Shown here piece by piece: positions 4,701 through 52,200 of a DNA stretch of 64,000 nt. Within the stretch, counting starts at the first letter, position 1, and each line of letters opens with the position of its first letter. Under the pieces are notes generated by a model. It was not told the DNA's origin. It ran no database searches and saw nothing but the letters and a program-made list of their open reading frames with translations. Both the position numbers and the translations under genes were made by a program. This DNA is from Somniosus microcephalus (taxonomy: Eukaryota), in contig CM126226.1 of assembly GCA_052327205.1 (NCBI GenBank), positions 42,346,001 through 42,410,000 of the forward strand. Direction: 5' to 3'.

Positions 4701-5400
4701 GGCCTAGAAATTCACTTGGGCGCGGGCAGCTCGCTCGCGCCCAAAAGTTAGCGCTGGGCGGGGAGGCATTAGCGCACGCTGTATATTCGTCTTCTGCGCC
4801 CCAATTCGGAAGCGGGCGCTATACCAGGGTGTGCCCGCCTCCGTTTGGGGCGCTGCAACTGAATATCGGCGCGCTAGTTGCCGCAGCGCCACCCGATGCG
4901 GTGCAGCAGGCTGCGGTACTGCAGGCCTCCCCCTTCTCTTAAGGGGGAGGTGCCTGCAACGGCCGGAGCCCCGATCGCGAGTGCCGGCAAAAGAGCCTGG
5001 CACAACGGAGAAGTGCCGGGCTCCACGGAAACCAGCCGGCAATGCCGCGGGGGGGCGGTGGAGGAGGCCGGGGAAGGAGGTGCGGGCAGGCGGCCGCCGA
5101 AAAAGCAGCCAGCCGCACCTTCAGCTTTAAAGCGCCCCACTATGGCAGCAGGACGGCCCCGTTTTCTGTTCGCTGTTTGCGCCCGCTTCGGAGGAGGTGG
5201 GCACAAATAAATATGGGGTTCGGCGCGGTTTCGGGGCGTTACGGGCCACCGCGCACACCGATGACGTCATCGGTCCCGGCGCAGCGCTAACGGCTACCGC
5301 CGCCAATACCGCTGCACTCAATTTCAACGCTACCACCCCGCCGGCGCAAAAGACCTCTTTAGGCGCTAAGTGGGCGCAAGGCCCACTGAATTTCTAGGCC
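4701..5400. mobile_element. Harbinger/PIF-type MITE, 700 bp, GC/CpG-rich
   Basis: TIRs GGCCTAGAAATTCACTTGGGC / GCCCACTGAATTTCTAGGCC; 3-bp TSD TTG (4698-4700, 5401-5403); no credible coding capacity. Confidence 0.9.
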
Positions 5401-10066: not shown

Positions 10067-10069
10067 TGG

Positions 10070-27316: not shown

Positions 27317-28269
27317 AGTCAGCCCGTCTTTCCTTGTTCAGGTTACTGACAGATCTGCTGCATATTTTCAGTTTCTTTTTGGTTCTGTTTTAGATTTTGA
27401 TTCACTCTGCACAGTTCTTTATAGTGCCTGGTCTGCTTGTTCTCCTGCTGAGTAGCTCAGCGTGTGTCAATTGCAGTGAGTGTAGAGGAGCCACAGCCAG
27501 GAGCTGTGAATCAGTTCTGAGCTGTGAGATGATGAGCGATACCCATCCACTTGTGCCAACATCTCATCCCATCATCTCTGCAGGATCTACTCACAAACAC
27601 CTCAGGAAGCTACGGCTCCACAGGGATGGTCATTTCAAAAGGCACATTATGACTAAAGTGTTCAACCTACAGTTGCACATTAAATGTCCACATACAAATC
27701 TTATATAAATCACAGGAAACTGTGACAATATATAGAGAAATAGAGGTGCATGGGCAATACATAATAGAAAACAGTGATATCTAGAGGATATGCAGCAAGG
27801 AATGTTGGGATACAGAGGACACACAATAGGGAATGACAGAATCTAAAGGATACACAGGAGGAGATGGGCAGAATTACAGGTCACATGGCTGCAAGTGGTG
27901 ATATCTAGATGACAAACAATAAAGAATAGTGGGATATAGGGAATGCCCAGTGTGGAATAATGGAATATGGAAGAATCATAATGTGGAACATTGGGATCCA
28001 TTTGGATAGTGGATGCATAGTAGGATTTACAGAATCATTGGGGGGACAATGGGATGTATAGTTTGTTTGATGAGTGATAGATTAGTACCTCAAAATAGGC
28101 CAACGTGTGTTATCCACTGTCTGCTGTGTTTATACCGTATGACGAAGATTAAACCTAGAACTTGGAGGAGAAGAGCATTTAATACGTTATTGTGTGAAGC
28201 TCCTGTTTGTTCAGCATGGTAAGAGTTTTACTAAAGGGAGGGGATTCTAGGCACTGGAACATTTACTTT

Positions 28270-28890
28270 TCTACTTTTTTTATAGATATTGGTGAGTCGG
28301 CTGAGGAGCAACATTTGTAATCCCTGAGGAGGGGGTCAGACCTGCACTGCCCAGCCTTTCTAAGTCAGAACCATGTGGTGGGTGTTTCATCTGAATCAGG
28401 TGCCATTCAGATGTGCTGCCACTACTGCCGCAAAAAGTTCAATGAGCTCACCAGGACAGGGAAGGTAACACACTGGGCACCCACCCTAGGCACGAGCACA
28501 CTCTTCACCCTCTTAAAGCAACACTTGTACAACTAACCCTTCACACTACACTCTGGTTAAGAGCAGTTCTAACTCGGTATCTTGCACTATGGTAACACCA
28601 CTCCCCTAACACCAATAATTGCAATGCACGATCCTAAAATACCTTCCTCCACTTATTAGCCTCATCTCTCACTTCACCTCTCGCATAGATCTTGGCCCAC
28701 ACTCCTCAAATACTGGCCTTACCCTCATTCACTCTATCTTCTTGAAGGACAAATTGGCACACAATGCCCAACAGAGGGGGCAACCCCACTTTTAAAGACC
28801 TCACCCCCTTCGAGGAGAAGGCCATGGAGCTAGTGGGCACTCACTTTGCTCTTGCCGTCAAGAGATGGCAAGGCCAGTGGCATCTTGCCA
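28270..28890 (+). pseudogene. Old Harbinger Myb/SANT-like gene remnant (exons 1-2)
   Basis: CRKKFNELTRTGK|gtaac (donor 28465) and ag|DKLAHNAQ..GGNPTFKDLTPFEEKAMELVG (exon from 28748); homologous to the 34044 and 49296 genes with the same intron position. Confidence 0.75.
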
Positions 28891-30851
28891 ACACAAGGCT
28901 AGTGTCTGAAATCTTCTGGTGGGCTGACCCTCTGAGAGGCATTCAGAATCAATTGCAGGTCTTTGTAGAAAAAAAATAATAAAAGTATAGATTCATAAAG
29001 GGTAGCCAGGCTGCAGAATTCACTGTATGAAGTTTCCAGACCCCTCGAGCTCACAAACTCTTCAGTTTCGCCGTGATCGACTGATCCTGGCAGCGGCTGC
29101 ACCTAATTTATTTCAGTCTAAGTTACCCAAGAAGGGTGCAGAAACTCGGGGAGGGGGAGGGGGGAGGGTTTTAAAGGTGCACAAGCGATGTGAACGGCCT
29201 CCACCCAAATTTCCTCACTAAAAGAAAACATTCTGTGCCGTTCGTGCATGGTAAGTACGCCAAAAATATCAAGGAAATTCACCACCCAGAATCCCAACTC
29301 TCAGAGTGAACTCTGCCCTAATAATGGGAACCTTCACATGTTAAAATAATCATTGGTTTACTTGAAATAATGAAAAGTGATATTAAAAATACACTCTCTG
29401 TGGTGTTGTCCATGATATAGGATTGTGGGTTACAGGTTCCAAAAGCACCTCTGCACATACCTCCGTGCCACAGATACAATGTTCAAACACTGTTTCAACC
29501 TGAAACCGATTAATAGCCAAGAAACCCTACGTAGAAAATGTTAGTTCATTCCATAGCTCTCTTGAATTTTACTGGAATGATGTTTCTCCATACTGTTCAA
29601 AGGAGGTGGTGGGTGGGTGGCGTGGGGGGGCCTGGGGGGGGGTAGGTTGGCGGGGTGGGGGGGGGGGAGAATGACCATCATGGTGACCAGTGTTCTCACT
29701 TCATTACAATGACAGTACTGTTAGCGCTCTGCTTAACCCTTTCAGTACAGTGCAAGGCTGCACTAGACTGAACAACATCTCATCACTTTTGAAGTGGAAA
29801 AAAACCTCACGCAGAAGCTCATCATTTGAACATTTCATACTGTGGTTACCTTGGCAGGGTTCTGAAAGTATTAGGAGACAAAATGGACTGGTGTGTAAAA
29901 GGATACGTGTCTTCCTTCTGCAGTCTAGTCATTGCCTTGGCCAAGTTGGCTCAAATAGAGAAATGTATTAGCCAAAAAGTAATGTTGTTAGCATTTTCCT
30001 CAACTGGCTGGTGGTAATGCCAACAACTGAACAGCACATAGAGGAGGGTTAGATTAATATAGAGAGAGCCCCCAAAAATGCTCGCTAGTGCCAAACCAAA
30101 TGGATCTTTGAGTTCTTGGGAAATGAAATAAGGGGCTCATACAACAGAAAGGATGGAGCAACTCAGAGGCAAAGTTGAGCAACAAATTACCCAATGGTAA
30201 GTGATCTGGAGGTATTAGCCCTCAAGATCTTAGGTTGTCCATTATTGGGGGCTTGCAGTGTTTGGAAGAACACGAGCAATTGGCAACTCAAAGCTCTCCT
30301 TGAAATCCTAGCATGTTTAAAAAAACTTACTGAAATTCCTGAAAGTGACCAGAGGGAAACAGGAGTATTTCCTGTACTGGCCAATTAGAAGATTGACTGA
30401 CTTTTTATTTTTGAAAAATTCCAGTCAAAAAAACATTGTTTTTTGGAGAAAAAAAATCGCTTTTACAGCTAATGTACCACAGTACATGAAATGTGAAATC
30501 AAATACAGCACACTAAATTAATTTTTCAGTCCCAGGAACATTTTTTTCTGGAATGTTTTAAAAATACATGTATATCTTTTTTCCCTTTCTTTTGCTTTTT
30601 CACCCTTTGAAATATCCACTGCTGTCTGTCTACCGCAGCCACACTTTCCTGCTCTAGTTGGGAGGGCGTCTTGTTCTGCCAAGTTTCCTTGCTCTCCCTC
30701 CCCTCCCTTCCCCGCACAGCATCTGTCAGCAAGGCTGAGAATTGGCAAGCCTCGTCCAGTGAACGGAGGCAGGTTTCAGCTCCAGAGGCTGGAGTGGTTT
30801 TAATTTCTAGATATTTCTAGGCTTTCATTATTTCTCTATGGAAGGGTACTA

Positions 30852-31218
30852 TAGACTAGTGGTTATGATACTGGGCTAGCAATCTAAAAGTCATGAGTTC
30901 ACAATCCCACCGTTCCTATTGAATTCAATAACTTGTGGCCCACACCAGAAAAGTGACCATCAAAGCTGCCAAATAGTTGCATAAACTCAACTGGTTCACT
31001 AATGTCCGTCAGCAAAGGGCATTTGCCACCCTGACCCTGCTTGGCCGTCATGTGACTCCTGTCCCACACTATATGGTTAACTCTCCATGCCCTCTAAAGT
31101 GGCCAAACAAGCCACTCAATTGTAAAAACAAGCACTCAAGAAGAAGGTCCACCACCACCTTCTTAGGGCTGTTAAGGATGGGCAACGTCACCCACATCCT
31201 GAGAACAAATTTAAATAA
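30852..31218 (+). mobile_element. tRNA-headed SINE sharing head, body and tail with the 13580-16864 LINE
   Basis: TAGTGGTTATGATACTGGGCTAG..GAGTTCACAATCCCACC..CTGGTTCACTAATGTCC..ATGTGACTCC..GCCCTCTAAAGTGGCC..AAGCCACTCAATTGTA, then AAGAAGAAGGTCCACCACCACCTTCT..GGATGGGCAA..CCCACATCC. Confidence 0.8.
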
Positions 31219-31264
31219 ACATGTTTAACAAGGCTTTGATTTTCTCTTTCCTGGTCAACTTTCA

Positions 31265-31610
31265 CCCCTCTTCTCCTGAGGACCCAGTCTCCTGCCCTCC
31301 CATATCATAGCCATGCGACCATTCCTCGTGTTTGAGTGTGGCCAAGTTTTTTTTCCCATGGTGCGGGGAGGGTGCGGTGGGGGCGAGGCATCACAGCTGA
31401 GCCTGGTCCTGTCCACACCTAAAATCCACACGGAGACACTTTCACCAGTAGTCACTGGATAGGGATCAGAATCAGAAACCCCGGCTGGTTTTCTGCTCCC
31501 TATCCCAGGGATGCTGAAGCCAATTCTAGATTTCCCCACTGTTGCCCTGGCTAATTCAGCGCAGAGCAGTGCTTGAACCTAGGGCTTCCTTGGGCTGTAT
31601 GGCTCAGCTC
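31265..31610 (-). mobile_element. SINE-like family B
   Basis: GTCACTGGATAGGGATCAG..CCCGGCTGGTTTT..GCTAATTCAGCGCAGA..TTGAACC. Confidence 0.6.
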
Positions 31611-31612
31611 TT

Positions 31613-32128
31613 TGCTGGGAATACTCTCCACTTGCCTGGATGAGTGCAACGCCAACAACATTGAAGAAGCTCGACACCATCCGGGACAAAGCAGCCCACT
31701 TGATTGACACCCCATCCACCACCTTAAACATTTGCTCCTTCTACCACCGGCGCACCGTGGCTGCAGTGTGTACCATCTACAAGATGCACTGAAGCAACTC
31801 GCCAAGGCTTCTTCAGCAGTACCTCCCAAACCCACGAGCTCTAACACCTAGAAAGACAAGGGCAGCAGGCGCATGGGAACACCATCACCTGCAAGTTCCC
31901 CTCCAAGTCACACACCATCCTGACTTGGAAATATATCGCTGATCCTTCATTGTCGCTGGGTCGAAATCTTGGAACTCCCTCCCTAACGGCACTATGGGAG
32001 TACCTTTACCACGCGGTCTGCAGCGGTTCAAGAAGGCGGCTCACCACCGCCTTCTCGAGGGCAATTATGGATGGGCAATAAATGCTGGCCTTGCCAGCGA
32101 CACCCACATCCCAGGAACGAATAAAAAA
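31613..32128 (+). mobile_element. 3' fragment of the same LINE family as 13580-16864
   Basis: EYSPLAWMSATPTTLKKLDTIRDKA..LQRFKKAAHHRLLEGN and 3' tail. Confidence 0.9.
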
Positions 32129-33334
32129 TACCCTGCTAAACCTATGGGAGAACAGATTTCCCATTTCTTCAAGAGTAGAACCAATCTCACAATATTCCCC
32201 GTCTCACTGGTACGATTCTCTCTTAACAGCAGATCAATTTACACCAGTCCGCTCCTCTCACTGTTATAAAGGTCTAGTTTTTGGGGTTGCGAATTGTTTG
32301 CAGCTCACGCAGAGTTAATGGACTGAAACCCACCACATTGTTCTTTTCTTGTTGTGAAGCTCTGGCGAGTGACTATTTCCCTCCACTTTTAGTGGTCAGC
32401 GCTACAGACTGTGATTACAGTAATGTGGGACAGATCCCCTCCTCCCCACATCCAAACACATTAAACCCCTCCTTAGTTGCTCAACACTTTAACAGCCCAC
32501 CAGCACTTTGGCGCCAGGAACAAGCTGCCCATCATGAAAGAGAGAGAGCAAGAGAAGGAATCAGAAATGACTATAAGTTGGGAGTTATCATCTTACTCAC
32601 TGATTGACAAAAGCCAAGAAAGAGCAGAAAAAATAAACACGAACAGAGGCTGCAGTGTATGTCCCAGCCGGCTGGGAATTCTAGTATGTAGCCTTGGTAA
32701 TCTCACCTCGCAGTGGTTTATCTCTGCGCCCTGGATCGTTTATCACTATTTCGGCAAAAAGCTTGGCAAAAAAAATATTTTTTTTAAGAAAGAACAAGTC
32801 ATTTTGAAATCATCTGCAAACGAATGTCAGGTTTGCCGGTGCTGCTTTTGGCTGTGATTGTGCCCTGATTCTGAGTTAGCATTATTATTTTTTGAAATAT
32901 TATCCGGTGTGTTCTTACAGGCTTGGCTTGAGAAAGACAAGGAGATACAAAAAAAGAACGGCATCAGGATTTTCTTTGCTGAACAACAAAAGTAATGGAG
33001 CTGGCGTTGAACCTACATTCTGCCATTAGGTGTCACCAGTCTGTTCTGGAAATACAGAGCGAAATAGTATCTTCAGTATGCACTAGAGACACCTATTGGC
33101 AATTTGAGGGTACTGTGCTATTTTAAAAAAACTATTAACCTATGGAAAGTAAGTTTTTACTGAAACATGAAGGGCAGATATTGAGACTTTCCTCACTGGT
33201 GTATATCGCGTTTAGTTATTTTTTAGCAATAAATTTACACACTCGTTTTGAATTCTTTCTTAAGACTGCCACAGTAAAATATCTAGAACTAGGGGGCCTT
33301 ATTAATTTCCATTTTACTAATCTTGGCTACTGCA

Positions 33335-33685
33335 AACAAACACAGGTACGGGAGTCGGCCATTAGGCCCGACGAGCCTGCTCCACCATTTTCCCAGCCAC
33401 AGCACGATCCTCAAGTTCCATGTTTCTCTCCAAATCCCTTAATAGCCATAGCCCCCAAGTAAGTCTTTATCTCCCTTTTAAACACCTCAGTTGACATTAT
33501 ATCTATGGCCTCTGAGACAGCATAGTCCACATTCTCACAACGTTTTGCGTGAAGAAGTTTATTCCTGAACAGCTTTTAATTGTCTAATTTTGAGATTCTG
33601 TCCTCTTCAGCTGGATTCCCCTACTAGAGGGAAAAGCCTTTCCCTGTCAACTTTGTTAATTCCATTATTTTATTTTAAACACTTT
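33335..33685 (-). mobile_element. Old CR1 3' end (host of the Harbinger insertion)
   Basis: GGAGTCGGCCATTAGGCCCGACGAGCCTGCTCCACCATT..CCACATTCTCACAACGTTTTGCGTGAAGAAG. Confidence 0.7.
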
Positions 33686-34043
33686 GGCCTAGAAATTGGG
33701 TATAGCCCCGCTTGAGGCACTAGAACTGGCGGTGCGCAATGTTTATAGCCAGACGAAACTTATCGCTGCCTGGCGAGATATTGGGTTGCATTGTCCCCAA
33801 AGGGGATTGAGGTGCTAATTCAGCCGTTGCACGGTGCTCCTAAGGCGCAAAAGTTCAGGTGCTACTCAATATCGACGCGGACGGGCACAGCGCAGGTGAT
33901 CTCAATTACGGGAAACCATGAGACTTCCAGGCGCCGGCCGGCTCTTAAAGGGGTGGGTCAGTCAGCCTGAGCTGCCACACCCAACGCCCTGTAGGCCTCA
34001 GAATCGGCGCTCGCCCTTCTCTGGCGTTAGAAACTTGTTGAGC

Positions 34044-35884
34044 ATGGAGAAGGTTAGACAGAGAGCAGAGCGCTTCAGCACTGAGGCTCTGGACCAGTTG
34101 GTGGCTGCAGTTGAGCGCCGTCGAGATGTCCTGTATCCGGACAATGGCAAGAGGCCGAATCAGAAGGCTTACCGGCGATCTTGGAGGGAGGTTGCTGTGA
34201 GGGTCAACTCCAGCAGCATGGCGACCAGGACCCCTGTTCAGTGCAGGAAGAAATTCAACGACCTCACACGGATCGTTAGGGTGAGTGATGGCTTAGCAAA
34301 CTTCTGATTCCCTCCATCTGCAGCTGACTTCGGGCACCCTGTTGCCATGATGCCCCAATGGCCATCTGTCAGCAAGCACCCATGGCCCTTTCTGGGCACA
34401 CACATAGACAGATGTCTCAAGGCCTCATATAAGGGCTCTTTCACCATGGGGGGCATGCGATGATGTCTCAAGGCCTCATGTAAGGGCTCTTTCACCATGG
34501 GGGGCATGCGATGATGTCTCAAGGCCTCATGTAAGGGCTCTTTCACCATGGGGGGCATGCGATGATGTCTCAAGGCCTCATGTAACACAACTTCCCCTTC
34601 TTTCCTCTCCAGGCCAAGCTGGCGGCCAGGCGAAGGGACCACTTTCAAACCGGTGGCGGGCCTCCACAAGTGGTCCCTCTCACGGATCTGGAGGAGAGAG
34701 TGCACCAGATTCTTGGAGGACGTCTGCCTGGTCCTGTGACCACTGCATCTGCCGACCCCATTTCCGACAGCGAGGGTAAGACTCTCACCTTTTTCACCTG
34801 TTGCCTTCCACTTGGTCCCCCCGCCAGCATGCTCCCTCAGTGTGCAGCCATGTCAGAGCCTTGCCACAATCTGGCATGCCTTCCCGCAAACCTGTCCTTT
34901 TGCTAAAGCAACTCTTCCACCTCCCTGCTTTCAGATGAATCAGCACCAACTCGGACTCAACGCACTGAAGCTGCCAGTGCCAGTGCCACTGGAGGCGAGG
35001 AGCAGGAGGAATCCGGACCAGCCATTGCAGAATCCGGGGAGCGGACACATCTACAGACTGGGGATAGTAGTCCCCTGGAGGGGAGGGGGGGCGGCTCTGA
35101 GGATGAACCAGTTGCCGGAACAAGCGGCATGCAGCAACGCAAGGGGGATAGGCAAGTTCGGCCACCATCTCCCCGGAGGGCAAGGCAGGTAGTTATGACT
35201 GCTGCTCAGAGTGCAGAGGAGGTGCGTCGCCTGGGTGAAATGAGCAAACAGGCCCAGCTCAGACACACGGAGCTGATGGCTGCAGTGGAGAAGATGCCTC
35301 AGTCAATAGATTCATTAGCTAAGAGTATGTTGGACTTCGGGGCAACAATGGAGATGACTCTCCAGGGCTTTGGGGCAACAATGGACAGGACTCTCCAGGG
35401 CTTCGGGGCAACAATGGACAGGTCTATCCAGGGCTTCGGGGCAACAATGGACAGGTCTATCCAGGGCTTCAGGCCAACAATGGAGAGGACTATCCAGGGC
35501 TTTGGCCCAACAATGGAGAGGACTGTCCAGGGCTTTGAGGCCGCTGTGGAAAGGACTGTTCAGGGCTTCGGACAATCCCTGGAAAGGTCTGTCCAGGGCT
35601 TGTCCGAGGCAGTGGAGCGGTCGGCACCTGCCTTGTCCGAAGCAATGGAAAGAACTGTCCAGGGCTTCTCCGAAGCACTGGCACCTGGCACACAGGTCCT
35701 CACTGTTGCCACGCAGTCACTTGCTGGGCTCGTCCACACCCAGATTGCGGGAAAGATGGGCACAGATTTGGGAGGTGACAACATGTTCAAGGAAAGGGAG
35801 GTTGGAGATGAAAAACTCGTTGAAATCATGACTTTTATTAAAATAGGGCTGAAGACCCATACGACGGCTGGTGCCCCTGGGTAG
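34044..35884 (+). CDS. Harbinger Myb/SANT-like DNA-binding protein (MSANTD/NAIF1-like), 3 exons 34044-34280, 34613-34775, 34935-35884, 449 aa
   Basis: RAERFSTEALDQLVAAVERRRDVLY..WREVAVRVN..RTPVQCRKKFNDL and TGGGPP..LTDLEERV motifs; canonical GT-AG introns (phase 0 and 1); 237+163+950=1350 nt with no internal stop; ATTAAA at 35944. Confidence 0.8.
34411..34585. repeat. 51-bp tandem repeat (~3.4 copies) in intron 1 of the Myb gene
   Basis: Unit GATGTCTCAAGGCCTCATGTAAGGGCTCTTTCACCATGGGGGGCATGCGAT. Confidence 0.95.
35333..35695 (+). repeat. 33-bp coding tandem repeat (~11 copies of GFGATMDRSIQ-like 11-mers)
   Basis: Unit approximately CAGGGCTTCGGGGCAACAATGGACAGGTCTATC, in frame with the Myb gene. 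Confidence 0.95.
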
Positions 35885-36194
35885 TCCTCTGGATGCTCAG
35901 TGCATGTTGACAATGACTGCAGAAGGGGAGGCCATATTTTAAAATTAAAATGTTTCTCCTGGACAGCCCTCTCCTTGTAGTAGGCCCTCCTAGAGTCTGT
36001 GCCCCTGCATTTGCTTGGCCTCCGGTGGCCAGTTCTTCATAGAGGTCATTGTGCCCCAAGGGATTTAACAGTGAAAAAAATGGTGGTGTTTTAAGGGCAG
36101 CTGTTGCCCTTCCATTGCTGAAGTTGCCCAATATTCCAGCCCTTGATCCCCCAGACGCGTGACACGAATACTTAAAGGAACTGACCCCACGTTA

Positions 36195-36425
36195 TCGTGC
36201 AAGGTCAGTTCACTCAGCACCTCAAGAACAGCAGCCTATTCTGCCAGGGCAGCATTGTCCATCCCAGACACACACGCTCAGTTTCTAGCAGGAGCCAGTG
36301 TATAGTGATCAGGAGCAGGAACTGTGGCTGATTTAATCCCTCTCCCCAGTCCAAGTCTGCTGAAGTAGATCGTAGCAGCCCAAGAATTGCCCGTCTCAGA
36401 TCAGCTAACGCAACACAGACCATAA
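36195..36425 (-). mobile_element. SINE-like family B
   Basis: ATAGTGATCAGGAGCAGGAACTGTGGCTGATTT..CTCAGATCAGCTAAC. Confidence 0.55.
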
Positions 36426-37957
36426 GTCACAATCACAATTCTTAAAGAGCGATTTTAAAAATAGAATAGCCCTGGATATGTTTCATCCGTCTCATTGTTA
36501 TAAAGTGGGAGCAAAGGAAGCAACACACAGCAGCTCTGCACCTGTATGAGCAGAACATCTTTGATGAAGTAAAAAAAAGCTTAGTTAATCATTTTGAAGT
36601 GGGAGCTCCCCAGATATCTCACCGAGTTTATCTAGGAAAATCCCAGATTCTATCCCCTGTCTGTGCTGAATGAATTGATCTATATCGAGGCAGGAGGAAG
36701 AGTGACAATTGGGCCTCAGTGTCTGCACACTAGTGGGGTGAAACCCCAGCCTGGGCTCCTGTTCCCCATCATTATCCAGCAAGTCTTAATGAATGACTGT
36801 GTGCGCGTGTGCAAGCGTGTGTGAGAGTACATGTTTGTGTGTGTGTGCACGTGTGCGTGTGTACGTGTTTGTGCATAGGAAGAAACAAGAACAGCAATTA
36901 TACAGTGCTTTGAATGTAGTAAAACCTTGCACTGTACTTCACAAAGGTGAAGTCAGATGCTGAGCAGTGGTAGAAGAGTTAGGGGAAGTAACTAAAGACC
37001 TGGTCATTGAGGCTTTGAGGGGGCATTTAAAGGAGGGAAGAGTGGTAGCAAGGGGCAAAGGGATTTGGGCTCGGCTGCCATACCTCCACAGTTAAATAGC
37101 CGGCCAACATCCAGTGTCCAGGCTCATACATGAATGGCCACCAAAGGTACCAAAGGGTGCCAGCCTGAGTCAATGCCTTTCCAGGGTGCGGGGGGGGGCT
37201 GGGGGGGGAGCAAAGTAGTAGGAAAAGGACAGGTGGGAAAACCCAATTCATAACAGTAGCTGTTTAATAGTGTGAGATTTTATTTTACAAAATAGAAACA
37301 GGTTTACATTTAACTTCAGATAATAATGTGGGTTTAGTATCTCAATGGTCTAATCAACAGACAGCTAAAAACACTTCTGTTGGGCCAACACTAGCTGTTT
37401 AGCCAAGTTGACAAATGCAGTTAGACGAAGGAAAACTTGCGCCTTTTGCAATATTTGGCCATATTTTCCTGAATAGATTTTTCCGACCTCTGGCCAATTG
37501 GCCACGCCAAATAATAAAAGGAGAAAGCTGCAAACTGAACAATAAGCACGGGATAAATCTGAAACAAAACACTTCTGGTGATAATTCCAAGAGCTATTGG
37601 TTTTTCAAAGAAAAATCTCCCTGCATTAAATATAGTTGAACAACGGAGTCAGGCCTCCAGAGAGGGATGTACTGAGAGCAGTAACAGCATTGTGTTTTAA
37701 ACACTGCAAGATGGGATGTTGAACTATGGTTATGGGGAAACAATAGCAGAAGAGCAGGAAATGTTAGGCCGCCTGCCAACTGGCTATGAACCCAGCTTCT
37801 CGTTTAAACGGCAGTTTACAGCAAGTGGTGAGATACATTTTCTGACCCTCTCAGTGTCCTGGTGTTGCTGTCGCTGTGGGTCTCAGCCTTGGCCAGTGTC
37901 GTTAACCCTTTGAGGACCCCAAGCAGCAGTGAGAATAAATTTCTTGTCCCTTGATTT

Positions 37958-39084
37958 AAATTTTTTTTTATTTGTTCCTGGGATGTGGGTGTCACTGGCA
38001 AGGCCAGCATTTATTGCCCATCCCTAATTACCCTTGAGCAGGTGGTGGTGAGCCGCCTTCTTGAACCGCTGCAGTCCCTGTGGTGAAGGTATTCCCATAG
38101 TGTTGTTAGGGAGGGAGTTCCAGGATTTTGATCCAGCGACGATGAAGGAACGGCGATATACTTCCAAGTCAGGATGGTGTGTGACTTGGAGGGGAACTTG
38201 AAGGTGATGGTGTTCCCATGTGTCTGCTGCCCTTGTCCTTCTAGGTGGAAGAGGTTGCGGGTTTGGGAGATGCTGTCGAAGAAGCCTTGGCGAGTTGCTG
38301 CAGTGCATTTTGTAGATGGTACACACTGCAGCCACGGTACGCCGGTGGTGGAGGGAGTGAATGTTTAAGGTGGTGGATGGGGTGCCAATTAAGCGGGCTG
38401 CTTTGTCCTGGATGGTGTCGAGCTTCTTCAGTGTTGTTGGAACTGCACTCATCCAGGCAAGTGGAGAGTATGCCATCACACTCCTGACTTGTGCCTTGTA
38501 GATGGTGGAAAGGCTTTGGGGAGTCAGGAGGTGAGACACTCGCCGCAGAATACCCAGCCTCTGACCTGCTCTTGTAGCCACAGTATTTATGTCGCTGGTT
38601 CAGTTAAGCTTCTGGTCAATGCTGACGCCTATGATGTTGATGTTGATGTTGATGTTGGGGGATTCGGCAATAGTAATGCCGTTGAATGTTAAGGGGCAAT
38701 GGTTAGACACTCTCTTGTTGGAGATAGTCATTGCCTGCCACTTGTGTGGCATGAATGTTACTTGCCACTTATCAGTCCAAGCCTGAATGTCATCCAGGTC
38801 TTGCTGCATGCGAACATAGATTGCTTCATTATCTGAGGAGTTGCGAATGGAATTGAACACTCAGCAATCATCAGTGAACATCCCCACTTCTGACCTTATG
38901 ATGGAGGGAAGATCATTGATGAAGCAGCTGAAGATGGTTGGGCCTAGGACACTGCCCTGAGGAACTCCTGCAGCGATGTCCTGGGGCTGAGATGATTGGC
39001 CTCCAACAAGCACAACCATCTTCCTTTGTGCTAGGTATGTCTCCAGCCAGTGGAGAGTTTTCCCTCTGATTCCCACTGACTTCA
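37958..39084 (-). mobile_element. 5'-truncated copy of the 13580-16864 LINE family
   Basis: GVPQGSVLGPTIFSCFINDLP..FTDD through AAHHHLLKGN and 3' tail. Confidence 0.95.
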
Positions 39085-39449
39085 ATAAATTATAATATGG
39101 GAGGATGGGGGTTGGGGGGGGCGTGTGCGGGGGGTGGTGGGAGTGATAATTCCCTCTATCTGCTGCGTAGGACAAAACCCGTTTATCAGGAACACACAGA
39201 GAGAAGCTATTCCCCATATACTGTCAGCTGAGGGATACTTGATTTGTTTATGCATTTGTTAGAACTTTGCTGTTTTGTGTTCACTGGTCCAAGTGTACAA
39301 CCAGGATGGGCGTGGTTTGGGACCAATAAAAAAGGAACAATTAGTAGTTTGGGAATGGTAAAAAGCCACAGGGATTATCATCTCAACTGAATAAAGGAAT
39401 TAAGAATCAGGAGCTTTTCATTTTGCTGCTGTATATACAGTTATAAGAT

Positions 39450-39655
39450 TGAAGAGGGGAGGAGAGTAAGAGAGGGTGAGAGGGGTAGAAAGGAGATGGT
39501 GATAGGCAGGAAGAAAGGAATAGGGTGAAGAGGAGAGGACAGCAGAGGCGAAGGAAGGAAAGAGAACAAAAACGGTGAGAGAGGAATGGAGAGCAGAAAA
39601 AGGGGGAGGGAGGGAATCAGGGAGGGGAGGAGAGGAGAAGGGAGTGGAGGTAAAC
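39450..39655 (+). repeat. Polypurine (GA-rich) low-complexity tract
   Basis: About 200 bp almost free of pyrimidines on the plus strand. Confidence 0.8.
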
Positions 39656-40612
39656 CAATGGTAGGTAGAGCAAGATTAGGTCATGGAGGATAGAAATATG
39701 AGTGTTGAGTGGAGAAATGAGAAACCTGCTGAGTGAAATTTGTGTCAATGCAACACCATTAAAAGCAAGAAATTAAAAATACAATCAAAGGGGAATAAAG
39801 TGCTGCTTCAAACGATTATTGCTCTTTGTTTCCCTTTCCTGGTTCTGACACTCTACGTTAAACATATACAATCCTAGCAAACTTCATTCTCTGCAAAATT
39901 GTATTCTCAAGTTCAGCTGAGAAAACCTGTTCTCCTGCGGCCAGTGTTTCCATGGCCCACACACCTTAAACTCATCATCCGCGAAAATAATAGAATTATT
40001 TGTACTCGCAAAACCGTCAGAGTTCACTGCATCTGATGGGCTCCATCGTACTTTGCCCCCGGCAATCCGATCCATCCTATTACTGGTGTGTCCTGAATTC
40101 ACAGTCGGATGAAAAGCTGGATATCAATAAAGCCCGGTTCACCAGCCTTTAGTCTCAAGGGACTCCCAAGGCGCTCTGAATGCAACAGTCTCAATACCTG
40201 GAGGCGACCGGATTCAGCATCATGCAATACCAGAGGGCTGTTTACCAAATGATAGTCACCAGCCATACATAGTGACCGGACAAGGGACAGTCATACACTG
40301 GGACAAGAGACAGCCAAACATAGTACAGTACTCCCTTACTGCTATGTTGGTAGAGATCACACAGACCAGAGCCTGAAACAACAAAGGTGCCTTGGCTTTT
40401 GGAATGCATAATAGAACAAGGCCTTGCTGAGGCCTGGCATCAGCAGTTCTGCTTCCATTAATGACCACAGAGCTCCCCAGCCCCTGGCCAAAGTTGTACT
40501 AAACATTTGTCCTGTCACTTGTCTATGATGCAAAAACTAAACACAGCTTGGAAAGGTATAGAAACTTGATGGCCGTGAAGCTGTCCGTTTTGGAAAAAAA
40601 TATAGATACAGA

Positions 40613-41618
40613 GGGCAGGATTTTCATTGGGCCGTGGAGGTGGGATTGGAGGCGTGTGGGGGGTTAAAATCTCGAAATCGGGGGGCACGAACCCAACCCG
40701 CCCCCCAACCCGCCTCCATGCCAGTTTCAAAGGAGGCGGATACCCGACCTGCGCTGGGACCCGCCTCCCCAAGGCGGGAAGGGGATTAGTGCCAATTAAC
40801 TGCCTGTTAACAGATTGTCAGTGTTTGACAGCTTCAAACAGCTGTCAAACGCTGATATTTCATCTGTCAAAAGCTCTTGACAGATGAAATGTCAATCTGT
40901 GACATCACCTGTTGCCGGGTGGCCTTTAATTGGCCTGCTGAGCCCGCTGGGTGGGCTCAACAAGGTAGGTAACAGGTAGTTAACAGGCAGTTTTTAGCCT
41001 AATCCCTATTTTTATTCCTGAAGTGTGGGATTCCCGACGGCTCCAAACCACGCCAAGTTAGTGAGGCGGACCGTCGGGCTGAAGGGCTTGGAGGGTTCGA
41101 GATGTCCAGTGTTCAGGTGAGTGATGGGTGCATGAGTGCAAAGATAAGTGTGTTTGGTGTGTGTAAAGTGTTTAAAGAAGTTTAATTACCTTTACTTACC
41201 TTTACAGCCTTCCTTCCTTCAGGTCTCGGGAGTCCCTCATCTCACTGGCACAGAAAGCAGAATGGCCGCGAGCTGTCAAAAGTTGCAGCATTCAGCTTTC
41301 TGTTCCGGAGAGATCTCTAAATCAGCCTGAGAGGAAGGAATTAACTTGGAATACAGATTGTCAGTGTTTGACAGCTTCAAACAGCTGTCAAACGCTGATA
41401 TTTCATCTGTCAAAAGCTCTTGACAGATGAAATGTCAATCTGTGACATCACCTGTTGCCGGGTGGCCTTTAATTGGCCTGCTGAGCCCGCTGGGTGGGCT
41501 CAACAAGGTCAATCAAGTGAAAATCGCGTGGGTTGGCCACAACTCGATGGAGGCGGGACTACAACCCCGAAAGTTGTAGTCCCACCTCCATCACGCCTCC
41601 AGTATCAAAATCCAGCCC
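40613..41618. mobile_element. Harbinger-type non-autonomous element, 1006 bp
   Basis: TIRs GGGCAGGATTTTC / CAAAATCCAGCCC; TSD AGA/AGA; flanks AGATAC and GTGTCT; internal identical 157-bp duplication. Confidence 0.9.
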
Positions 41619-41904
41619 AGAGTGTCTGAGAGCTAATGATTATTCAAAGTTGATTTATACTGGAATAATACCAGCCTCTGGCCTTGTGCTGCCCATTTCT
41701 CCCGAGCTGCAGTGTCTGCATCCACTGAGGGAGGGCTAACCTGGATCTGGTGGTGGGGGGTGGAGTGGAAGGGGGTCTTGTACAGAGCAAATTATAAGCC
41801 AGTTTTTCTGTACACACTTGACTCTCTTAAGTATCTACAAACCCTGTGCTCATAAATAAAGTTTATTTTTGTTACATCAAATTGCTGTTCTAGAAAAAAC
41901 ATTA

Positions 41905-42004
41905 GACCCTGAATCATAAGATCTGTACAGCTCTCAAACATAATGCTAAACCCTGGATCATGAGATCTCTACAACTCTCAAACATAATGTTAAACCCTGG
42001 ATCA
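41905..42004. repeat. ~43-bp tandem duplication (about 2.3 copies)
   Basis: ACCCTGGATCATGAGATCTCTACAACTCTCAAACATAATGTTAA-like units. Confidence 0.75.
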
Positions 42005-43175
42005 CCTAAAAGATGAATATAGCAGGCTTGTCTGAGAAACTACCTGTGTAAAGTGAGCACCTCATGTTAGCCCCAACAATGACTAAACAAAAATAGTCCT
42101 GAACTTGCATTGGGAAACCCCAAAAGCTGGTCCAGGTGAAGAAGTTTGATAGAAGCTATGTGAACACACAAATGAGCAGCACATAGCGTAATGTTAACCG
42201 TTATTTCAATCTATAAATTCACAAGTTATAATCTTTATTAGAGAGTAATTCTGGATTAAGTACCTCGTATAGGTTCTCAAAACATGAAGATAAGGCACCT
42301 GGTATTACGCGACAGGAATTCAGGGTGTGTGAGCCAGTAAAGGGGCACTGTCTACATGAATAAAGTGCAAACCATGTTTGATTACGTGAGAATGGAGAAG
42401 TCTTCCCTTTTCCAAAAGAAACAAGTCCGAATGCCATAAACCTTTCTCATAACTGAAATTAGTCACATAATATAGCAGGAGTCAGAGGAAAACAGGATCA
42501 ACTCCGAACACCACTGGAGGGTTACCATCACAGGTTATGGCACCACCTCTGGAGCAAGTAAGAATAACAGGTGTTACCGTAACAGCAGTCCCCATTGATG
42601 TCCATGCAGCAATGTGCCAGCATTATAAACTTGAGGATTTGTGCGTGCGTGTAGATTAGCACTCCTGGCTCAGAACGTTTCAAGGCAGGAGCACCAGGAA
42701 TTCCAGAATGAGGGTGAGCAAGCCCAGCATGAGGTTTCACCCATTCACTTTACTGAATGGTAAATCATATGAGGCACACCGACCTCCATGCTCCGTTTAC
42801 TGTTATGCACACTTATCACGTGAAGCACGGATTTGCAAAACCTACCCACGTGTGGAATAGAACTACAATAGCTATACTACAAACCATCACATTGTAGCAA
42901 AAATCCGGTGTTTCAATACTGACTTTCCTGACAGTCACCTTCGAAATGCATCTTGGTGCATGGGAGCCAATTGTTCTTTTGTGAACAGGAGTTATAGTAG
43001 GTAAAAGAATCTCAGACATGTGGGGGTGGGGGATTTCCTTGATTGCTGTGTACCAAATTTCCAATTGAACGGGTTTTGAATCCACACCTGTTTCCTAAAT
43101 CTCTGCTTCCTTCATCTCCCTCTATCAGGGCAGCATTTCCTCAGATGTTTTCTAAGAGAACACTATTAAAATAGG

Positions 43176-44518
43176 AGGGTCCAGGAGTATGTTGATATTT
43201 GTGGGAGGGGGGTCCCGGGAGTGAGCTGATATTTGTAGGGGGGGTCCCGGGAGTGAGCTGATATTTGTAGGGGGGGGTCCCGGGAGTGAGCTGATATTTG
43301 TAGGGGGGGGGGTCCCGGGAGTGAGCTGATATTTGTAGGGGGGGTTCCCGGGAGTGAGCTGATATTTGTAGGGGAGTCCCGGGAGTGAGCTGATATTTGT
43401 AGGGGGGGGGGTCCCAGAAGTGAGCTGATATTTGTAGGGGGGGGGGGTCCTGGGAGTGAGCAGATATTTGTAACGGGGGGGTCCCGGGAGTGAGCTGATA
43501 TTTATAGGGGGGTCCCGGGAGTGAGCTGATATTTGTAGGGGAGTCCCGGGAGTGAGATGATATTTGTAGGATGGGGTCCCAGGAGTGAGCTGATATTTGT
43601 AGGGGGGGGGTCCCAGAAGTGAGCCAATATTTGATGGGGGGGTTCCCGGGAGTGAGCTGATATTTGTAGGGGGGGGTCCCGGGAGTGAGCTGATATTTGT
43701 AGGGGGGGGTCCCGGGAGTGAGCTGATATTTGTAGGGGGGTCCCGGGAGTGAGCTGATATTTGTAGGGGGGTCCCGGGTGTGAGCTGATATTTGTAGGGG
43801 GGGTCCCGGGAGTGAGCTGATATTTGTAGGGGGGGTCCCGGGAGTGAGCTGATATTTGTAGGGGGGGTCCCGGGAGTGAGCTGATATTTGTAACGGGGGG
43901 GTCCCGGGAGTGAGCTGATATTTGTAGGGGGGGTCCCGGGAGTGAGCTGATATTTGTAGGGGGGGGTCCCGGGAGTGAGCTGATATTTGTAGGGGGGGTC
44001 CCGGGAGTGAGCTGATATTTGTAGGGGGGGGTCCCGGGAGTGAGCTGATATTTGTAGGGGGGTCCCGGGAGTGAGCTGATATTTGTAGGGGGGGGTCCCG
44101 GGAGTGAGCTGATATTTGTAGGGGGGGTCCCGGGTGTGAGCTGATATTTGTAGGGGGGGCGGTCCCGGGAGTGAGCTGATATTTGTAGGGGGGTCCCGGG
44201 AGTGAGCTGATATTTGTAGGGGGGGTCCCGGGAGTGAGCTGATATTTGTAGGGGGGGTCCCGGGAGTGAGCTGATATTTGTAGGGCGGGTCCCGGGTGTG
44301 AGCTGATATTTGTTGGGGGGGGTCCCGGGAGTGAGCTGATATTTGTAGATGGGTCCCGGGAGTGAGCTGATATTTGTAGGGGGGGGGTCCCGGTAGTGAG
44401 CTGATATTTGTAGATGGGTCCCGGGAGTGAGCTGATATTTGTAGGGGGGTGGGGTCCTGGGAGTGTGCTGATATTTGTAGGGGGGTGGAGGGATCGCAGG
44501 AGTGTGCTGATATTTATA
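43176..44518 (+). repeat. G-rich minisatellite, about 40 units of ~31-36 bp
   Basis: Constant core TCCCGGGAGTGAGCTGATATTTGTA followed by a G run of variable length. Confidence 0.97.
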
Positions 44519-44520
44519 CA

Positions 44521-44763
44521 TAGGAACATGAGTAGGCCATTTAGCCCCTTTGCCTGTTCCACCATTCAATGAGATCATGGCTGACCTGTGACCTAACTCC
44601 ATCTATCCCTTAACAAATATCTATCAATCTCAGATTTTAAAATTAACAATTGATCTCGCATTAATTGCCGTTTGTGGAAGAGAGTTCCAAACTTCTACCA
44701 CCCTTTGTGTGTAGAAGTGTTTCCTAATTTCACTCCTGAAAGGTCTGGCTCTAATTTTTAGAC
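44521..44763 (-). mobile_element. CR1 (HER1-like) 3' end
   Basis: Near identical to 26876-27105; possible TSD ATACA (44516-44520, 44764-44768). Confidence 0.85.
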
Positions 44764-49295: not shown

Positions 49296-52200
49296 ATGTC
49301 CACGATCAAGCAAAAGTGTGCTCCGTGATTTGATGAGCCCTCCCTCCAAGCTCTGGTGCACGGAGCCAGATGCAATAAGGAGGTGCTGTTCCCTTCCTCA
49401 GGGAGAAAAAAGCCACCCCAGCAGACAAAAGCTGTGTGGCTACAAGTGGCCTAGGAGGTCAGCTCCATTTCGCTGAGCTGCAGAACCTGGCTGCAATGCA
49501 GGAAGCGGTTTCATGACCTTCTCCGCACAGGAAAAGTGAGTAGGATTTTCCCATTACCCTCAATCTGATCCCCATTGCCTCTCCTCACCAGCACTCTGCT
49601 TTGCCAACCTCTTCCTCCACATCCCACTTGACACTTACATGCCTGCACCCTTACCCATTCCCTCTCTCTCTAAGGTCACATTCACTTAACTATTCGACCA
49701 TGCAGCCCTCACACTCCCTATCACTGTGATGCCATGACAACAACAACTTTCAACACACAGGGAGGGTCCTTTGTATCCTTCTAAGCATCTATGCTATGCA
49801 TTCTCTACACTCACTCCTTCATTCTCACTCAAACTCCACTTGTGTCCCTCATTGCAGGAAAAGAGAGCCCACAATAAGAGGGAAAGAGCCATGACAGGAG
49901 GAGGGCCACCCTCAGTAGCCCAGCTCACCGCCTGGGAGGAGGCGGCCCTGGAAATCACCGGGATCGAGGAGGATTCCCAAGTGGGGGACGGACAAATGGG
50001 CGCATCGCAGCAAGCTGGTGACAGAATAGTTTGGCATCTCTCTCATTGACATTGCATGAGTCACTGATAATGAATCTGATGCTCTAACAGATTGACTTAT
50101 GATCATCTGCACTATTCAATGTTCATGTAACCTTGACCTCACAGCTCTAACTCTTTCCTTTACTCCCCCACAGGACCATGAAAAGCCCCCATCCCCACTG
50201 TCCAGGAGGAAGAGCCTGAGCTTCCAGACTCCTCCGAGGAAGTTGCAACCTCTGAGGGTGCAGCGTCAGCAAAATTCAGAGCATCCAGCACCAGCGCAGA
50301 CACTCACACCTCGGTGGGACCTTCGCGATATAGAGTAGTGTTGGCACCTGGTGTATCACAGCTCACAAGTGAGCATCAGTAGATGGTGGAGACAGGGACA
50401 GCAGTGGAGAGTCCTTGTCGGAGGGCGCAGGACTCTGCCAGCTCGGCTTAGCTGCATGTCGACCCTGTGCCTCCAGGTCCATCCAGAGGGAGAGCGGTGC
50501 TAGTACTCCAGGAACAGGTGCAGTAGTCTCTGGCAGCTTTTGTCTCCAGGGTCGCTGCGAGTGTCGAGCGAATGGAGCAGTCCATCGTGAACATGAGCAG
50601 AGCCTTTGTGGAGGCATTGGCGCATGAACGCATCATCACGGAAAGGATGGCAACCTCCATGGAAAGGATGGCTACAGTAGAGGAGAGGATGGCTATGGCC
50701 ATGGAGAAGCTAAGTCGCCAGAGTGTAGAAAACATGGTCATTGTTCAGAATAGACTGACATCTCTGGAGGAGCGATGGTCAGCTATTGAGCATAGAAACC
50801 AGACCTTCATGGAAGTCCTCTGGAGTAGGACTTCCAGTGCAGAAAAGGGTCCTCATGGCCCCCCTGAAGTGCAGCAAGGTGCTGTCAAGCCAGTTGCTAG
50901 CTCTGAAGTGGGGCTGACCCATGAGAGGGATGTTGGTGGCAGAAAATAGATTAAAGGGTGAGACGATACATGATCAGTGGTGTACATTTAAGGAGTTATT
51001 TTACAACTTCCAAAAAATATATATTTCACTGAGAAGAAAAGGGTGTAAAAGAAAAGACAGCCATCCGTGGCTAAGTAAAGAAATTAAGGATAGTATTCGA
51101 ATAAAAACAAGGGCATATAAGGTAGCCAAATCTAGTGGGTGGATAGAGGATTGGGAAAACTTTAAAAGACAGCAAAAAATAACAAAAAGATTGATTAAGA
51201 AAGGGAAGATAGATTATGAAAGTAAATTAGCAAAAAATATAAAAACAGATAGTAAGAGTTTTTATAGTTATATAAAAAGAAAAAGGGTGGCTAAAGTAAA
51301 TGTTGGTCCCTTAGAGGATGAGACCGGGAAATTAATGGTGGGAAATATGGAGATGGCAAAAACACTGAATGAACATTTTATATCAGTCTTTACAGTAGAA
51401 GACACTAAGAATATCCCAACACTGGACAAACAGGGGGCTAAAGGGGGGGAGGAGCTAAACACGATCAAAATCACTAAGGAAGTGGTACTCGGTAAAATAA
51501 TGGGACTCAAGGCGAATAAATCACCTGGACCTGATGGCTTACATCCTAGGGTCTTGAGGGAAGTGGCGGTAGGGATTGTGGATGCATTGGTAATAATTTT
51601 CCAAAACTCCCTGGACTCAGCAAAGGTCCCGGCAGACTGGAAAACTGCTAATGTAACACCCTTATTTAAAAAGGGCAGTAGACAGAAGGCTGGAAACTAT
51701 AGACCGGTTAGCCTAACACCTGTGGTAGGTAAAATTTTGGAGTCCATTATTAAGGAGACAGTAACAGGACATTTGGATAATCATAATTTAATAGGACAAA
51801 GTCAGCATGGTTTTATGAAGGGGAAGTCATGTTTGACAAATTTGCTGGAGTTCTTTGAGGAAGTAACATATAGGGTGGATAAAGGGGAACCAGTGGACGT
51901 AGTGTATTTAGACTTCCAAAAGGCATTTGACAAGGTGCCACACAAAAGATTATTGCTTAAGATAAAAAATCACGGGATTGGGGGTAATATTCTGGCATGG
52001 ATAGAGGATTGGCTATCTAACAGAGGCAGAGAGTTGGGATAAATGGTTCATTCTCAGACTGGCAATCAGTAACTAGTGGTGTTCCGCAGGGGTCAGTGCT
52101 GGGTCCCCAACTCTTTACAATCTATATTAACGATTTGGAGGAGGGGACCGAGTGTAACATATCAAAGTTTGCAGATGATACTAAGATGGGAGGGAAAGTA

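What the first reader, a model, noticed from the sequence alone, without database searches (positions are those of the whole stretch)
34044..35884. Intact spliced Myb/SANT gene with an 11-mer amphipathic repeat array in a one-ended Harbinger: candidate domesticated or trans-acting factor
Seen: three exons with canonical GT-AG junctions splice to a stop-free 449-aa ORF. It has a Myb/SANT-like domain, a TGGG motif, an acidic linker and about 11 tandem 11-aa repeats (GFGATMDRSIQ..GFSEALAPGTQ). Only the left TIR (33686) is visible; I found no right TIR, no transposase, and no continuation of the CR1 it inserted into. Known: Harbingers encode a Myb-like partner and have repeatedly been domesticated in vertebrates (NAIF1, MSANTD genes); 11-mer periodicity is typical of apolipoprotein, perilipin and synuclein amphipathic helices and of hendecad coiled coils. 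Inference: an immobilised copy still able to make a DNA-binding protein with an expanded oligomerisation or lipid-binding helix, its last ~45 aa possibly recruited from flanking DNA. It could equally be a young truncated copy that has not yet decayed.
Basis: partly seen in the sequence, partly recalled or inferred. Interest (0 to 1): 0.75.

Follow-up and report, generated by a model that had tools for sequence, protein, structure and literature searches.

The report
Truncated shark Harbinger helper-gene copy
The three-exon reading frame is real and unbroken, but it is most likely one cut-off, still-young copy of the DNA-binding helper gene of a jumping element that likely has thousands of copies in a shark-like genome, not a gene the host has adopted.

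Summary
Observation confirmed: 34044-34280 / 34613-34775 / 34935-35884 splice to a stop-free 449-aa frame with Myb_DNA-bind_5 and eleven 33-bp units. Domestication is not supported. In one public run, summed contig depth over the element, array included, is about 10^4 times that of the unique right flank, and a 112-nt contig identical to this copy has about 60 times flank depth: a high-copy family with a near-identical subfamily. Most copies appear to have fewer units, and intron 1 holds a parallel non-coding tandem expansion. Element-like sequence stops near 35743; the last 46 residues are read-through into an antisense LINE stub and flank, so one deletion likely removed the right end. Two RNA runs show family reads over introns and both strands, six intron-2-spliced reads, and none beyond 35880. 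The TIR is real: a complete 700-bp element in the window has it at both ends. At 1-2% private divergence an open frame has a 10-46% chance. Orthology and dN/dS remain untested. This scan noted similar shark Harbinger Myb genes on other DNA. Verdict: ordinary truncated transposon copy; the family's variable 11-residue helix is a minor curiosity.

The parts
33395..33685 (-). 3' part of a CR1-type LINE (end of the reverse-transcriptase frame, decayed) into which the element inserted
   Evidence: tblastn of the RT frame 52021-53007 hits 33417-33643 at 36-39%; frames
33677..33685 (+). Left half of the target site: AAACAC plus 3 bp (TTT, the likely left target duplication)
   Evidence: Same AAACAC precedes the TTG duplication of the 4701-5400 element; equals the left half of the Harbinger3_DR target consensus quoted in PMC3016246; AAACAC frequency in the window 0.0005
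33686..33697 (+). Left terminal inverted repeat GGCCTAGAAATT
   Evidence: Identical 12-mer at both ends of the 4701-5400 element; depth in runs X1 and X4 starts in the bin holding this place
33698..34043 (+). Subterminal and presumed promoter region, CpG-rich
   Evidence: CpG observed/expected 0.82 against 0.39 for the window; promoter role inferred
34044..34280 (+). Exon 1, Myb/SANT-like DNA-binding domain (aa 1-79)
   Evidence: PF13873 E 2.5e-10
34281..34612 (+). Intron 1 (GT..AG), with a 51-bp tandem array at 34411-34585
   Evidence: TRF 3.4 copies, 99% matches; X1 contigs skip one or two units (table 5); no spliced read listed for this intron
34613..34775 (+). Exon 2, TGGG motif and following helix
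   Evidence: aligns with the decayed copy at 49858 and with sawshark proteins P0117 and P0058
34776..34934 (+). Intron 2 (GT..AG)
   Evidence: Spliced in 5 reads (2 starts) of X14 and 1 read of X15 at 88% likeness or more, so at family level
34935..35743 (+). Element-derived part of exon 3: acidic linker and long amphipathic helix, cut near 35743
   Evidence: High family depth up to the bin 35572-35725; single-sequence model is one helix, residues 9-197, mean pLDDT 80
35335..35697 (+). Array of eleven 33-bp (11-aa) units, aa 267-388; unit number varies among family copies
   Evidence: joints that skip or repeat units, and a depth dip at 35471
35745..35810 (-). About 65-bp antisense stub of a LINE reverse-transcriptase region (L2-type label recalled), read through as aa 404-426
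   Evidence: Minus frame reads ISNLPFLEHVVTSQICAHLSRN; 81-348 RNA reads per row fit only 35744-35793 and run on as another repeat (table 7)
35811..35884 (+). Unique flank read through to the first stop (aa 427-449, TAG at 35882-35884)
   Evidence: Inside a 568-nt X1 contig identical to the window at depth 30.6
35944..35949 (+). ATTAAA, a possible chance polyadenylation signal
   Evidence: RNA depth 0 in the bin 35880-36033 in both RNA runs
4701..5400 (.). Complete non-autonomous element with the same TIR at both ends and a TTG duplication; internal reference for the ends
49296..50910 (+). Second, decayed Harbinger Myb gene with the same three-exon plan; internal comparison
   Evidence: 26% identity over 314 columns, E 2e-20, several stops

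Best explanation
This is the Myb-like helper gene of a Harbinger DNA transposon that most likely inserted into a CR1 element and then likely lost its right half in one deletion, and its frame is probably still open because the copy is young, not because the host keeps it. Shown: TIR, Myb domain, exon plan, very high family depth including the array, a single-copy right flank, an antisense LINE stub at the break, unit-number variation among copies. From the literature: in an intact element the Myb-like protein binds the element's ends and imports and recruits the transposase (PMC9392472, PMC9710019). Inferred: the deletion ran from inside exon 3 to inside a neighbouring minus-strand LINE and so removed the native C-terminus, the transposase, the right TIR and the rest of the CR1 at once; translation would run on 46 codons to the first stop; the 11-residue array is the family's C-terminal helix, likely a right-handed (3/11) coiled coil for self-association or partner binding, lengthened here by slippage or unequal exchange.
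For:: X1 summed contig depth 363,000-780,000 in every bin from 33724 to 35725, against 25-81 in the unique right-flank bins; X4 (another organism) 4,900-13,200. A 112-nt X1 contig with 0 differences (34595-34706) has depth 1785, 58 times the 30.6 of the flank contig; 0 differences in 112 nt has probability 0.10 at 2% and 0.003 at 5% divergence. Of 33 listed differences inside the element, 9 look private, 2 nearly private, 9 are shared by about 16-150 flank-depth equivalents and 13 by more than 300; 11 of 33 are CpG-type decay. Coding differences: 6 synonymous of 15, neutral expectation 25-30%, P 0.15-0.27. Chance of an open frame at 1-2% divergence is 0.10-0.46 with indels; a stop-free run of 46 codons occurs at 14% of starts in the window. 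RNA depth covers introns as well as exons, lies on both strands, and is 0 at 35880-36187 in 2 of 2 RNA runs. Depth at 35471 is 62,730 against 330,157 at 35355 and 377,397 at 35546, and the intron's non-coding 51-bp array is likewise shorter in X1 contigs. The window holds two more Myb relics. Sawshark protein P0117 has the same body with an antisense CR1 tail, 59-70% identical to CR1 pieces in this window.
Against: Summed contig depth is not a copy number (the tool says so); only the order of magnitude is used. Family reads are mostly 88-95% like this copy; if the private divergence were 5% or more, an open frame would be rare (0.02 or less), and only 40 of 460 difference rows were shown, so private divergence is bounded only loosely. 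Both listed private third-position changes are synonymous (35206, 35317) against 1-3 replacement changes, too few to test. The copy keeps a CpG-rich upstream region, a good start context, both introns and a possible polyadenylation signal. Only 24% and 31% of two RNA runs of unstated tissue were read. Orthology is untested.
Confidence: 0.82

Rival explanations
1. Transcribed relic acting in trans: the copy is not under host selection but is expressed somewhere (for example germ line) and its intact Myb domain binds the family's ends, helping or poisoning mobilisation of elements such as 4701-5400.
For: Intact Myb domain, start context and ATTAAA; family intron 2 is spliced on the sense strand; same-TIR element present. 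Myb-like proteins bind element ends and the transposase (PMC9392472 passages).
Against: No RNA depth beyond 35880 in 2 of 2 runs and no intron-1 joint listed. 8-mers shared between this left end and the 4701-5400 element, TIRs excluded: 14 observed, mean 9.2, 75 of 500 shuffles as high.
Confidence: 0.08
2. Incipient domestication: a fixed, selected host gene of the NAIF1/MSANTD kind, with a lengthened helix and a new tail.
For: Stop-free 449 aa; immobilised; Harbinger Myb genes were domesticated repeatedly (PMC9392472, section 6); 6 of 15 coding differences synonymous, slightly above neutral.
Against: Still carries TIR and subterminal DNA inside a CR1; a near-identical subfamily exists; the synonymous excess is not significant (P 0.15-0.27); no close protein relative among 1.84 billion representatives, the nearest true one being about 30% identical; no locus-specific RNA seen.
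Confidence: 0.06
3. The truncated Myb-only unit is itself an amplified non-autonomous family or segmental duplicate, with a right end that was not recognised.
For: Subfamily-level sharing of alleles.
Against: The right flank from 35764 on is single-depth: contigs of 568 nt at 30.6 and 1096 matched nt at 25.1. No partner TIR.
Confidence: 0.02
4. The array is an apolipoprotein-, perilipin- or synuclein-like lipid-binding helix.
For: 3/11 amphipathic period; PF01442 Apolipoprotein E 1e-8 to 4e-8.
Against: The score is 33.6-35.6 bits against a cut-off of 90; the phmmer hits to the array are mostly long repeat proteins at 17-47% identity, and only 1 of 116 also matches exons 1-2; Foldseek finds nothing; the N-terminus is a DNA-binding domain with no signal peptide evident by eye; related Myb partners have an unrepeated helix at the same place; no lysine, net charge -4.
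Confidence: 0.02

Closest known systems
Harbinger3_DR of zebrafish, Myb-like gene (Sinzelle et al. 2008, not read; seen as cited in PMC3016246, PMC9392472, PMC9710019)
   Same: Myb/SANT partner gene, short TIR, 3-bp duplication in the sister element, and AAACAC directly left of the duplication as in its target consensus.
   Different: No transposase or right TIR here; the duplication is TTG/TTT rather than CWG; the right half-site of the sister element is offset by 2 nt; 11-residue array; tail from flank. No direct sequence comparison was possible.
Pristiophorus japonicus 'uncharacterized proteins' UniRef100_UPI00398F737F (P0058) and UPI00398F53E9 (P0117)
   Same: Exon-2 and exon-3 body, 28-29% identity over about 180 columns, E 1e-12 to 4e-15; P0117 also ends in antisense LINE read-through.
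   Different: They lack the Myb domain (no Pfam hit) and the 11-residue array.
NAIF1 and MSANTD1-4 (domesticated vertebrate Harbinger Myb genes, PMC9392472)
   Same: Myb-like domain, three exons in MSANTD1, 3 and 4, no transposase alongside.
   Different: Those are single-copy, syntenic across jawed vertebrates and under purifying selection; this one sits in a high-copy family with its TIR, and shows no significant synonymous excess.

Membership tests
PIF/Harbinger transposon (fragment) | Myb/SANT-like gene | tested here: met
   PF13873 above cut-off
PIF/Harbinger transposon (fragment) | Terminal inverted repeats | tested here: met
   Left TIR only; the same 12-mer is paired on the 4701-5400 element
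PIF/Harbinger transposon (fragment) | 3-bp target duplication | tested here: inconclusive
   Right side missing here; TTG on both sides of the sister element
PIF/Harbinger transposon (fragment) | Dispersed multi-copy family | tested here: met
   Depth about 10^4 times the flank in X1, high in X4
Autonomous Harbinger element | DDE transposase gene within the element | tested here: not met
   No transposase family in 97 of 108 frames scanned, 27500-43100
Autonomous Harbinger element | Both ends present | tested here: not met
   No partner TIR at up to 1 mismatch; single-depth flank from 35764
Domesticated Harbinger Myb gene (NAIF1/MSANTD kind) | Single copy, free of transposon ends | tested here: not met
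   TIR kept; near-identical subfamily at about 60 times flank depth
Domesticated Harbinger Myb gene (NAIF1/MSANTD kind) | Conserved orthologous position in related species | tested here: inconclusive
   X4 covers the element but no unique flank bin at 88% likeness; distance or filtering could explain it; the closer organism B was not examined
Domesticated Harbinger Myb gene (NAIF1/MSANTD kind) | Purifying selection after immobilisation | tested here: inconclusive
   6 of 15 listed coding differences synonymous, P 0.15-0.27; small, capped sample
Domesticated Harbinger Myb gene (NAIF1/MSANTD kind) | Own spliced mRNA | tested here: inconclusive
   0 depth beyond 35880 in 2 of 2 RNA runs, partly read, tissue unstated; intron 2 spliced in 6 family-level reads; intron 1 not listed
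Exchangeable apolipoprotein / perilipin-type helix | Family score above curated cut-off | tested here: not met
   PF01442 35.6 bits against 90
Exchangeable apolipoprotein / perilipin-type helix | Lipid binding | not testable with these tools
   Needs a bench assay
Hendecad (3/11) coiled coil | Hydrophobic core at 3-4-4 spacing over 11 residues | tested here: met
   Unit positions 1 (F/L), 5 (M/V/L), 9 (mostly V/I/L); moment highest at 3/11; the 3-4-4 rule is recalled
Hendecad (3/11) coiled coil | Self-association | not tested
   No complex prediction was obtained

The most novel reading that the evidence does not exclude
A high-copy shark Harbinger family whose Myb partner carries a variable-number 11-residue coiled-coil array (about 6 to 11 units), and of which this immobilised copy, given a new stop and poly(A) signal by a deletion into a LINE, is a just-born, expressed trans-acting regulator of the family's many TIR-bearing copies: domestication caught at its first step.
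Probability: 0.07. Interest if true: 0.55.

Novelty: new member of a known kind. Interest (0 to 1): 0.17.

Why it matters
As an ordinary fragment it matters little: Harbingers are already reported from shark genomes (PMC12498223 and PMC8455134, passages). Two small points survive. A Harbinger Myb partner with a coding minisatellite of 11-residue units that varies among copies was not found in print in two searches. And AAACAC lies directly left of the duplication in 2 of 2 same-TIR insertions here, suggesting that the zebrafish Harbinger3_DR target preference is shared with a shark-type family. The case also warns that open, spliceable Myb frames with LINE-derived tails can arise by chance in shark genomes and enter annotations (P0117). 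If the locus proved fixed, expressed and selected, it would be a very young example of the process that gave NAIF1 and MSANTD genes.

Tried and rejected
No whole genome is held for this window, so copies could not be aligned. Word-index protein searches with exon 3 (0 of 7996 candidates) and exon 1 (0 of 110) found nothing; P0058 as query gave only P0117. Of 116 phmmer hits to exon 3 only P0058 also matched exons 1-2 (E 8e-5); the others inspected (10 printed) were unrelated repeat proteins and were rejected. The metagenome scan gave one 16-residue match (L001), treated as chance and not read. ESM Atlas: no usable hit. PDB by sequence: one match at E 0.32. Foldseek on the single-helix model: no match. 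Rfam: 0 matches in the window. Run search: no RNA holder listed. Earlier-finding look-ups by sequence and place gave nothing. Shared subterminal 8-mers with the 4701-5400 element were not above shuffles. Alternative exon boundaries tested either break the frame or change one residue. The LINE at 38000-39085 was rejected as the continuation of the interrupted CR1 because it has its own C-terminal part. No second read-laying and no complex prediction were obtained, so organism B, four small runs and self-association stay unexamined.

Full report
Observation. The three exons join to 449 residues without a stop, with GT..AG introns. Exon 1 is a Myb/SANT-like domain above Pfam's cut-off (PF13873, E 2.5e-10). 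Eleven 33-bp units lie at 35335-35697; the first six share 27-33 of 33 bases and two are identical, the last three are degenerate. The hydrophobic period is 3.64 residues and a single-sequence AlphaFold model of aa 204-401 is one long helix (pLDDT 80, pTM 0.33), which says nothing about packing.

The left end is a true transposon end. GGCCTAGAAATT occurs exactly three times in the window: at 33686 and at both ends of a 700-bp element at 4701-5400 that is flanked by TTG on each side. Both left ends are preceded by AAACAC plus three bases, the left half of the Harbinger3_DR target consensus AAACACCWGGTCTTT quoted in PMC3016246. This is 2 of 2 same-TIR insertions, a small sample; the right half-site of the complete element is offset by two bases, and the GGGCTGGATTTT-type ends in the window have other flanks. 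The CR1 piece at 33395-33685 happens to contain that hexamer, which likely explains the insertion site (inference).

The element is a high-copy family. Eleven of 15 listed runs hold part of the stretch. I laid 4 of them. Run X1 matches the unique right flank almost exactly (568 nt with 0 differences at depth 30.6; 1096 nt with 1 difference and 1 gap at 25.1), so it is likely genomic DNA of the same species; its kind is not on record. Over the element its summed contig depth is 363,000-780,000 in every bin from 33724 to 35725, the array included, against 25-81 in unique flank bins. The tool warns that this sum is no copy number, and overlapping short contigs inflate it, so I take only 'thousands'. 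Run X4, another organism, shows 4,900-13,200 over the same bins and nothing in the unique flanks; that hole proves nothing about orthology.

This copy belongs to a younger subfamily. Most family reads are 88-95% like it, but a 112-nt contig with no difference has 58 times flank depth. Of the 33 difference rows shown inside the element (the table showed 40 of 460 rows, best supported first), 9 look private, 2 nearly so, 9 are shared with about 16-150 flank-depth equivalents and 13 with over 300 (the residual depth may include third alleles, so these are upper bounds). Eleven of the 33 are CpG-type decay. Zero differences in 112 nt is likely only below about 3% divergence. At 1-2% the chance that 403 codons stay open is 0.10-0.46; at 5% it is 0.003-0.02 (simple neutral model with assumed indel rates). 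With thousands of copies, and a scan that picks open frames, some intact copies are expected. Of 15 listed coding differences 6 are synonymous, not above neutral (P 0.15-0.27). Against my reading: among the private or nearly private coding changes two are synonymous and one to three are replacements, too few to exclude selection, and the private divergence is only loosely bounded.

The array is a family trait whose length varies. X1 contigs skip about three units or one unit, or repeat one (joints 35400-35508, 35535-35641, 35601-35638, 35612 back to 35580; the last also in X4 and in 5 and 12 RNA reads). Depth at 35471 is about a fifth of that at 35355 and 35546. Two X4 contigs join a sequence that by eye matches 35305-35334 (21 of 30 bases) straight to 35500, five units fewer (table 7, compared). 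So this copy or its subfamily has more units than most. Intron 1 has a non-coding 51-bp array of 3.4 copies at 99% that X1 contigs carry one or two units shorter: tandem gain here also happens where no protein is affected. More distant Myb partners (the decayed copy at 49296, sawshark P0117 and P0058) have a helix at the same place without clear repeats. The hydrophobic positions 1, 5 and 9 fit a 3/11 coiled coil (rule recalled). The apolipoprotein hit is far below cut-off. Self-association was not tested.

The C-terminus is accidental. RNA reads of another abundant repeat fit only 35744-35793 and run on unlike the window on both sides. The minus frame reads ISNLPFLEHVVTSQICAHLSRN, and the loose ends translate by hand to ISNLPFLSK and SMFESLQSGF, the region that reads RPISLLSIISK...QFGFR in the window's RT frame at 14433-15341; the L2 label is recalled. 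So aa 404-426 are an antisense LINE stub and aa 427-449 unique DNA. A stop-free run of 46 codons occurs at 14% of starts in this window. One deletion from inside exon 3 to inside a neighbouring minus-strand LINE would remove the native C-terminus, transposase, right TIR and rest of the CR1 together (inference). No transposase was found in 97 of 108 frames scanned. Sawshark P0117 shows the same kind of tail, 59-70% identical to antisense CR1 pieces of this window.

Expression. In two RNA runs (24% and 31% read, tissue unstated) 3584 and 6531 reads were laid, only 51 and 112 at 99% or more. Depth covers introns as well as exons and both strands, mostly the orientation that in the usual stranded library is antisense to the gene. 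Intron 2 is spliced at the predicted sites in 5 and 1 reads, on the sense side; no joint is listed for intron 1; depth is 0 from 35880 to 36187. This fits passive transcription of many copies with a little family-level splicing, and gives no sign of this locus's own mRNA in these samples. Other tissues are untested.

Comparison with the known. [quoted passage not shown] Domesticated NAIF1 and MSANTD genes are single-copy, syntenic and under purifying selection (PMC9392472, section 6 and passages). This locus fails the first test and is inconclusive on the others. Harbingers were not detected in elephant shark (PMC9179366, passages) but are reported in whale shark and grey reef shark (PMC8455134 and PMC12498223, passages). 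Sinzelle et al. 2008 and Kapitonov and Jurka 2004 were seen only as cited. No supplements were read; repeat libraries in them could already hold this family. Searches for Harbinger + Myb-like protein + C-terminal + coiled-coil + transposase and hendecad + transposon + Myb found no paper. 'Shark-like' rests on the sawshark relatives, not on an identified source. Earlier notes of this scan describe similar genes on other DNA (unchecked).

Verdict. A real open frame, most likely a young, right-truncated copy of a high-copy Harbinger helper gene (0.82); expressed trans-acting relic 0.08; incipient domestication 0.06; amplified Myb-only unit 0.02; lipid-binding protein 0.02. Orthology and a full copy alignment are the open tests. 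Interest 0.17; new member of a known kind.

Noticed in passing
window 4701-5400: Complete, very GC/CpG-rich 700-bp non-autonomous element with 12-bp TIRs identical to the left end of the finding, TTG duplication, and AAACAC to its left; it shares about 110 bp at 73% with 44946-45063.
   Followed up: partly
window 49296-50910: Second Harbinger Myb gene, same three-exon plan, decayed by several stops, ending at a CR1 frame; TIR-like GGGCTGGATTTT at 48750 and 49013.
   Followed up: partly
window 28375-28460: Third Myb relic: end of exon 1 (CRKKFNELTRTGK followed by GT), 52% over 27 aa to the finding's exon 1.
   Followed up: partly
window 40613-41618: About 1-kb element with GGGC(A/T)GGATTTT ends and AGA on both sides; further ends of this type at 5882, 54532, 54860 and 63897.
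   Followed up: no
window 34411-34585: 51-bp tandem array (3.4 copies, 99%) inside intron 1; family contigs carry fewer units.
   Followed up: yes
window 43141-44602: Long repeat array open in several frames on both strands (366-474 aa), with an inverted partial copy near 44830-44946.
   Followed up: no
window 7062-7157 and 8153-8248: 96-bp inverted arms, 97% complementary, 995 bp apart.
   Followed up: no
window 25075-25914: 279-aa frame with a weak GIY-YIG hit (E 0.055), possibly a Penelope-like element.
   Followed up: no
window 31618-32128 and 37964-38474: Two LINE 3' pieces, 90% complementary over 511 nt, face each other on either side of the finding; such a pair might favour local deletions.
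   Followed up: no
   Followed up: no
P0117 residues 286-348: The C-terminus of this annotated sawshark protein is antisense CR1 sequence, the same kind of read-through tail as in the finding.
   Followed up: yes
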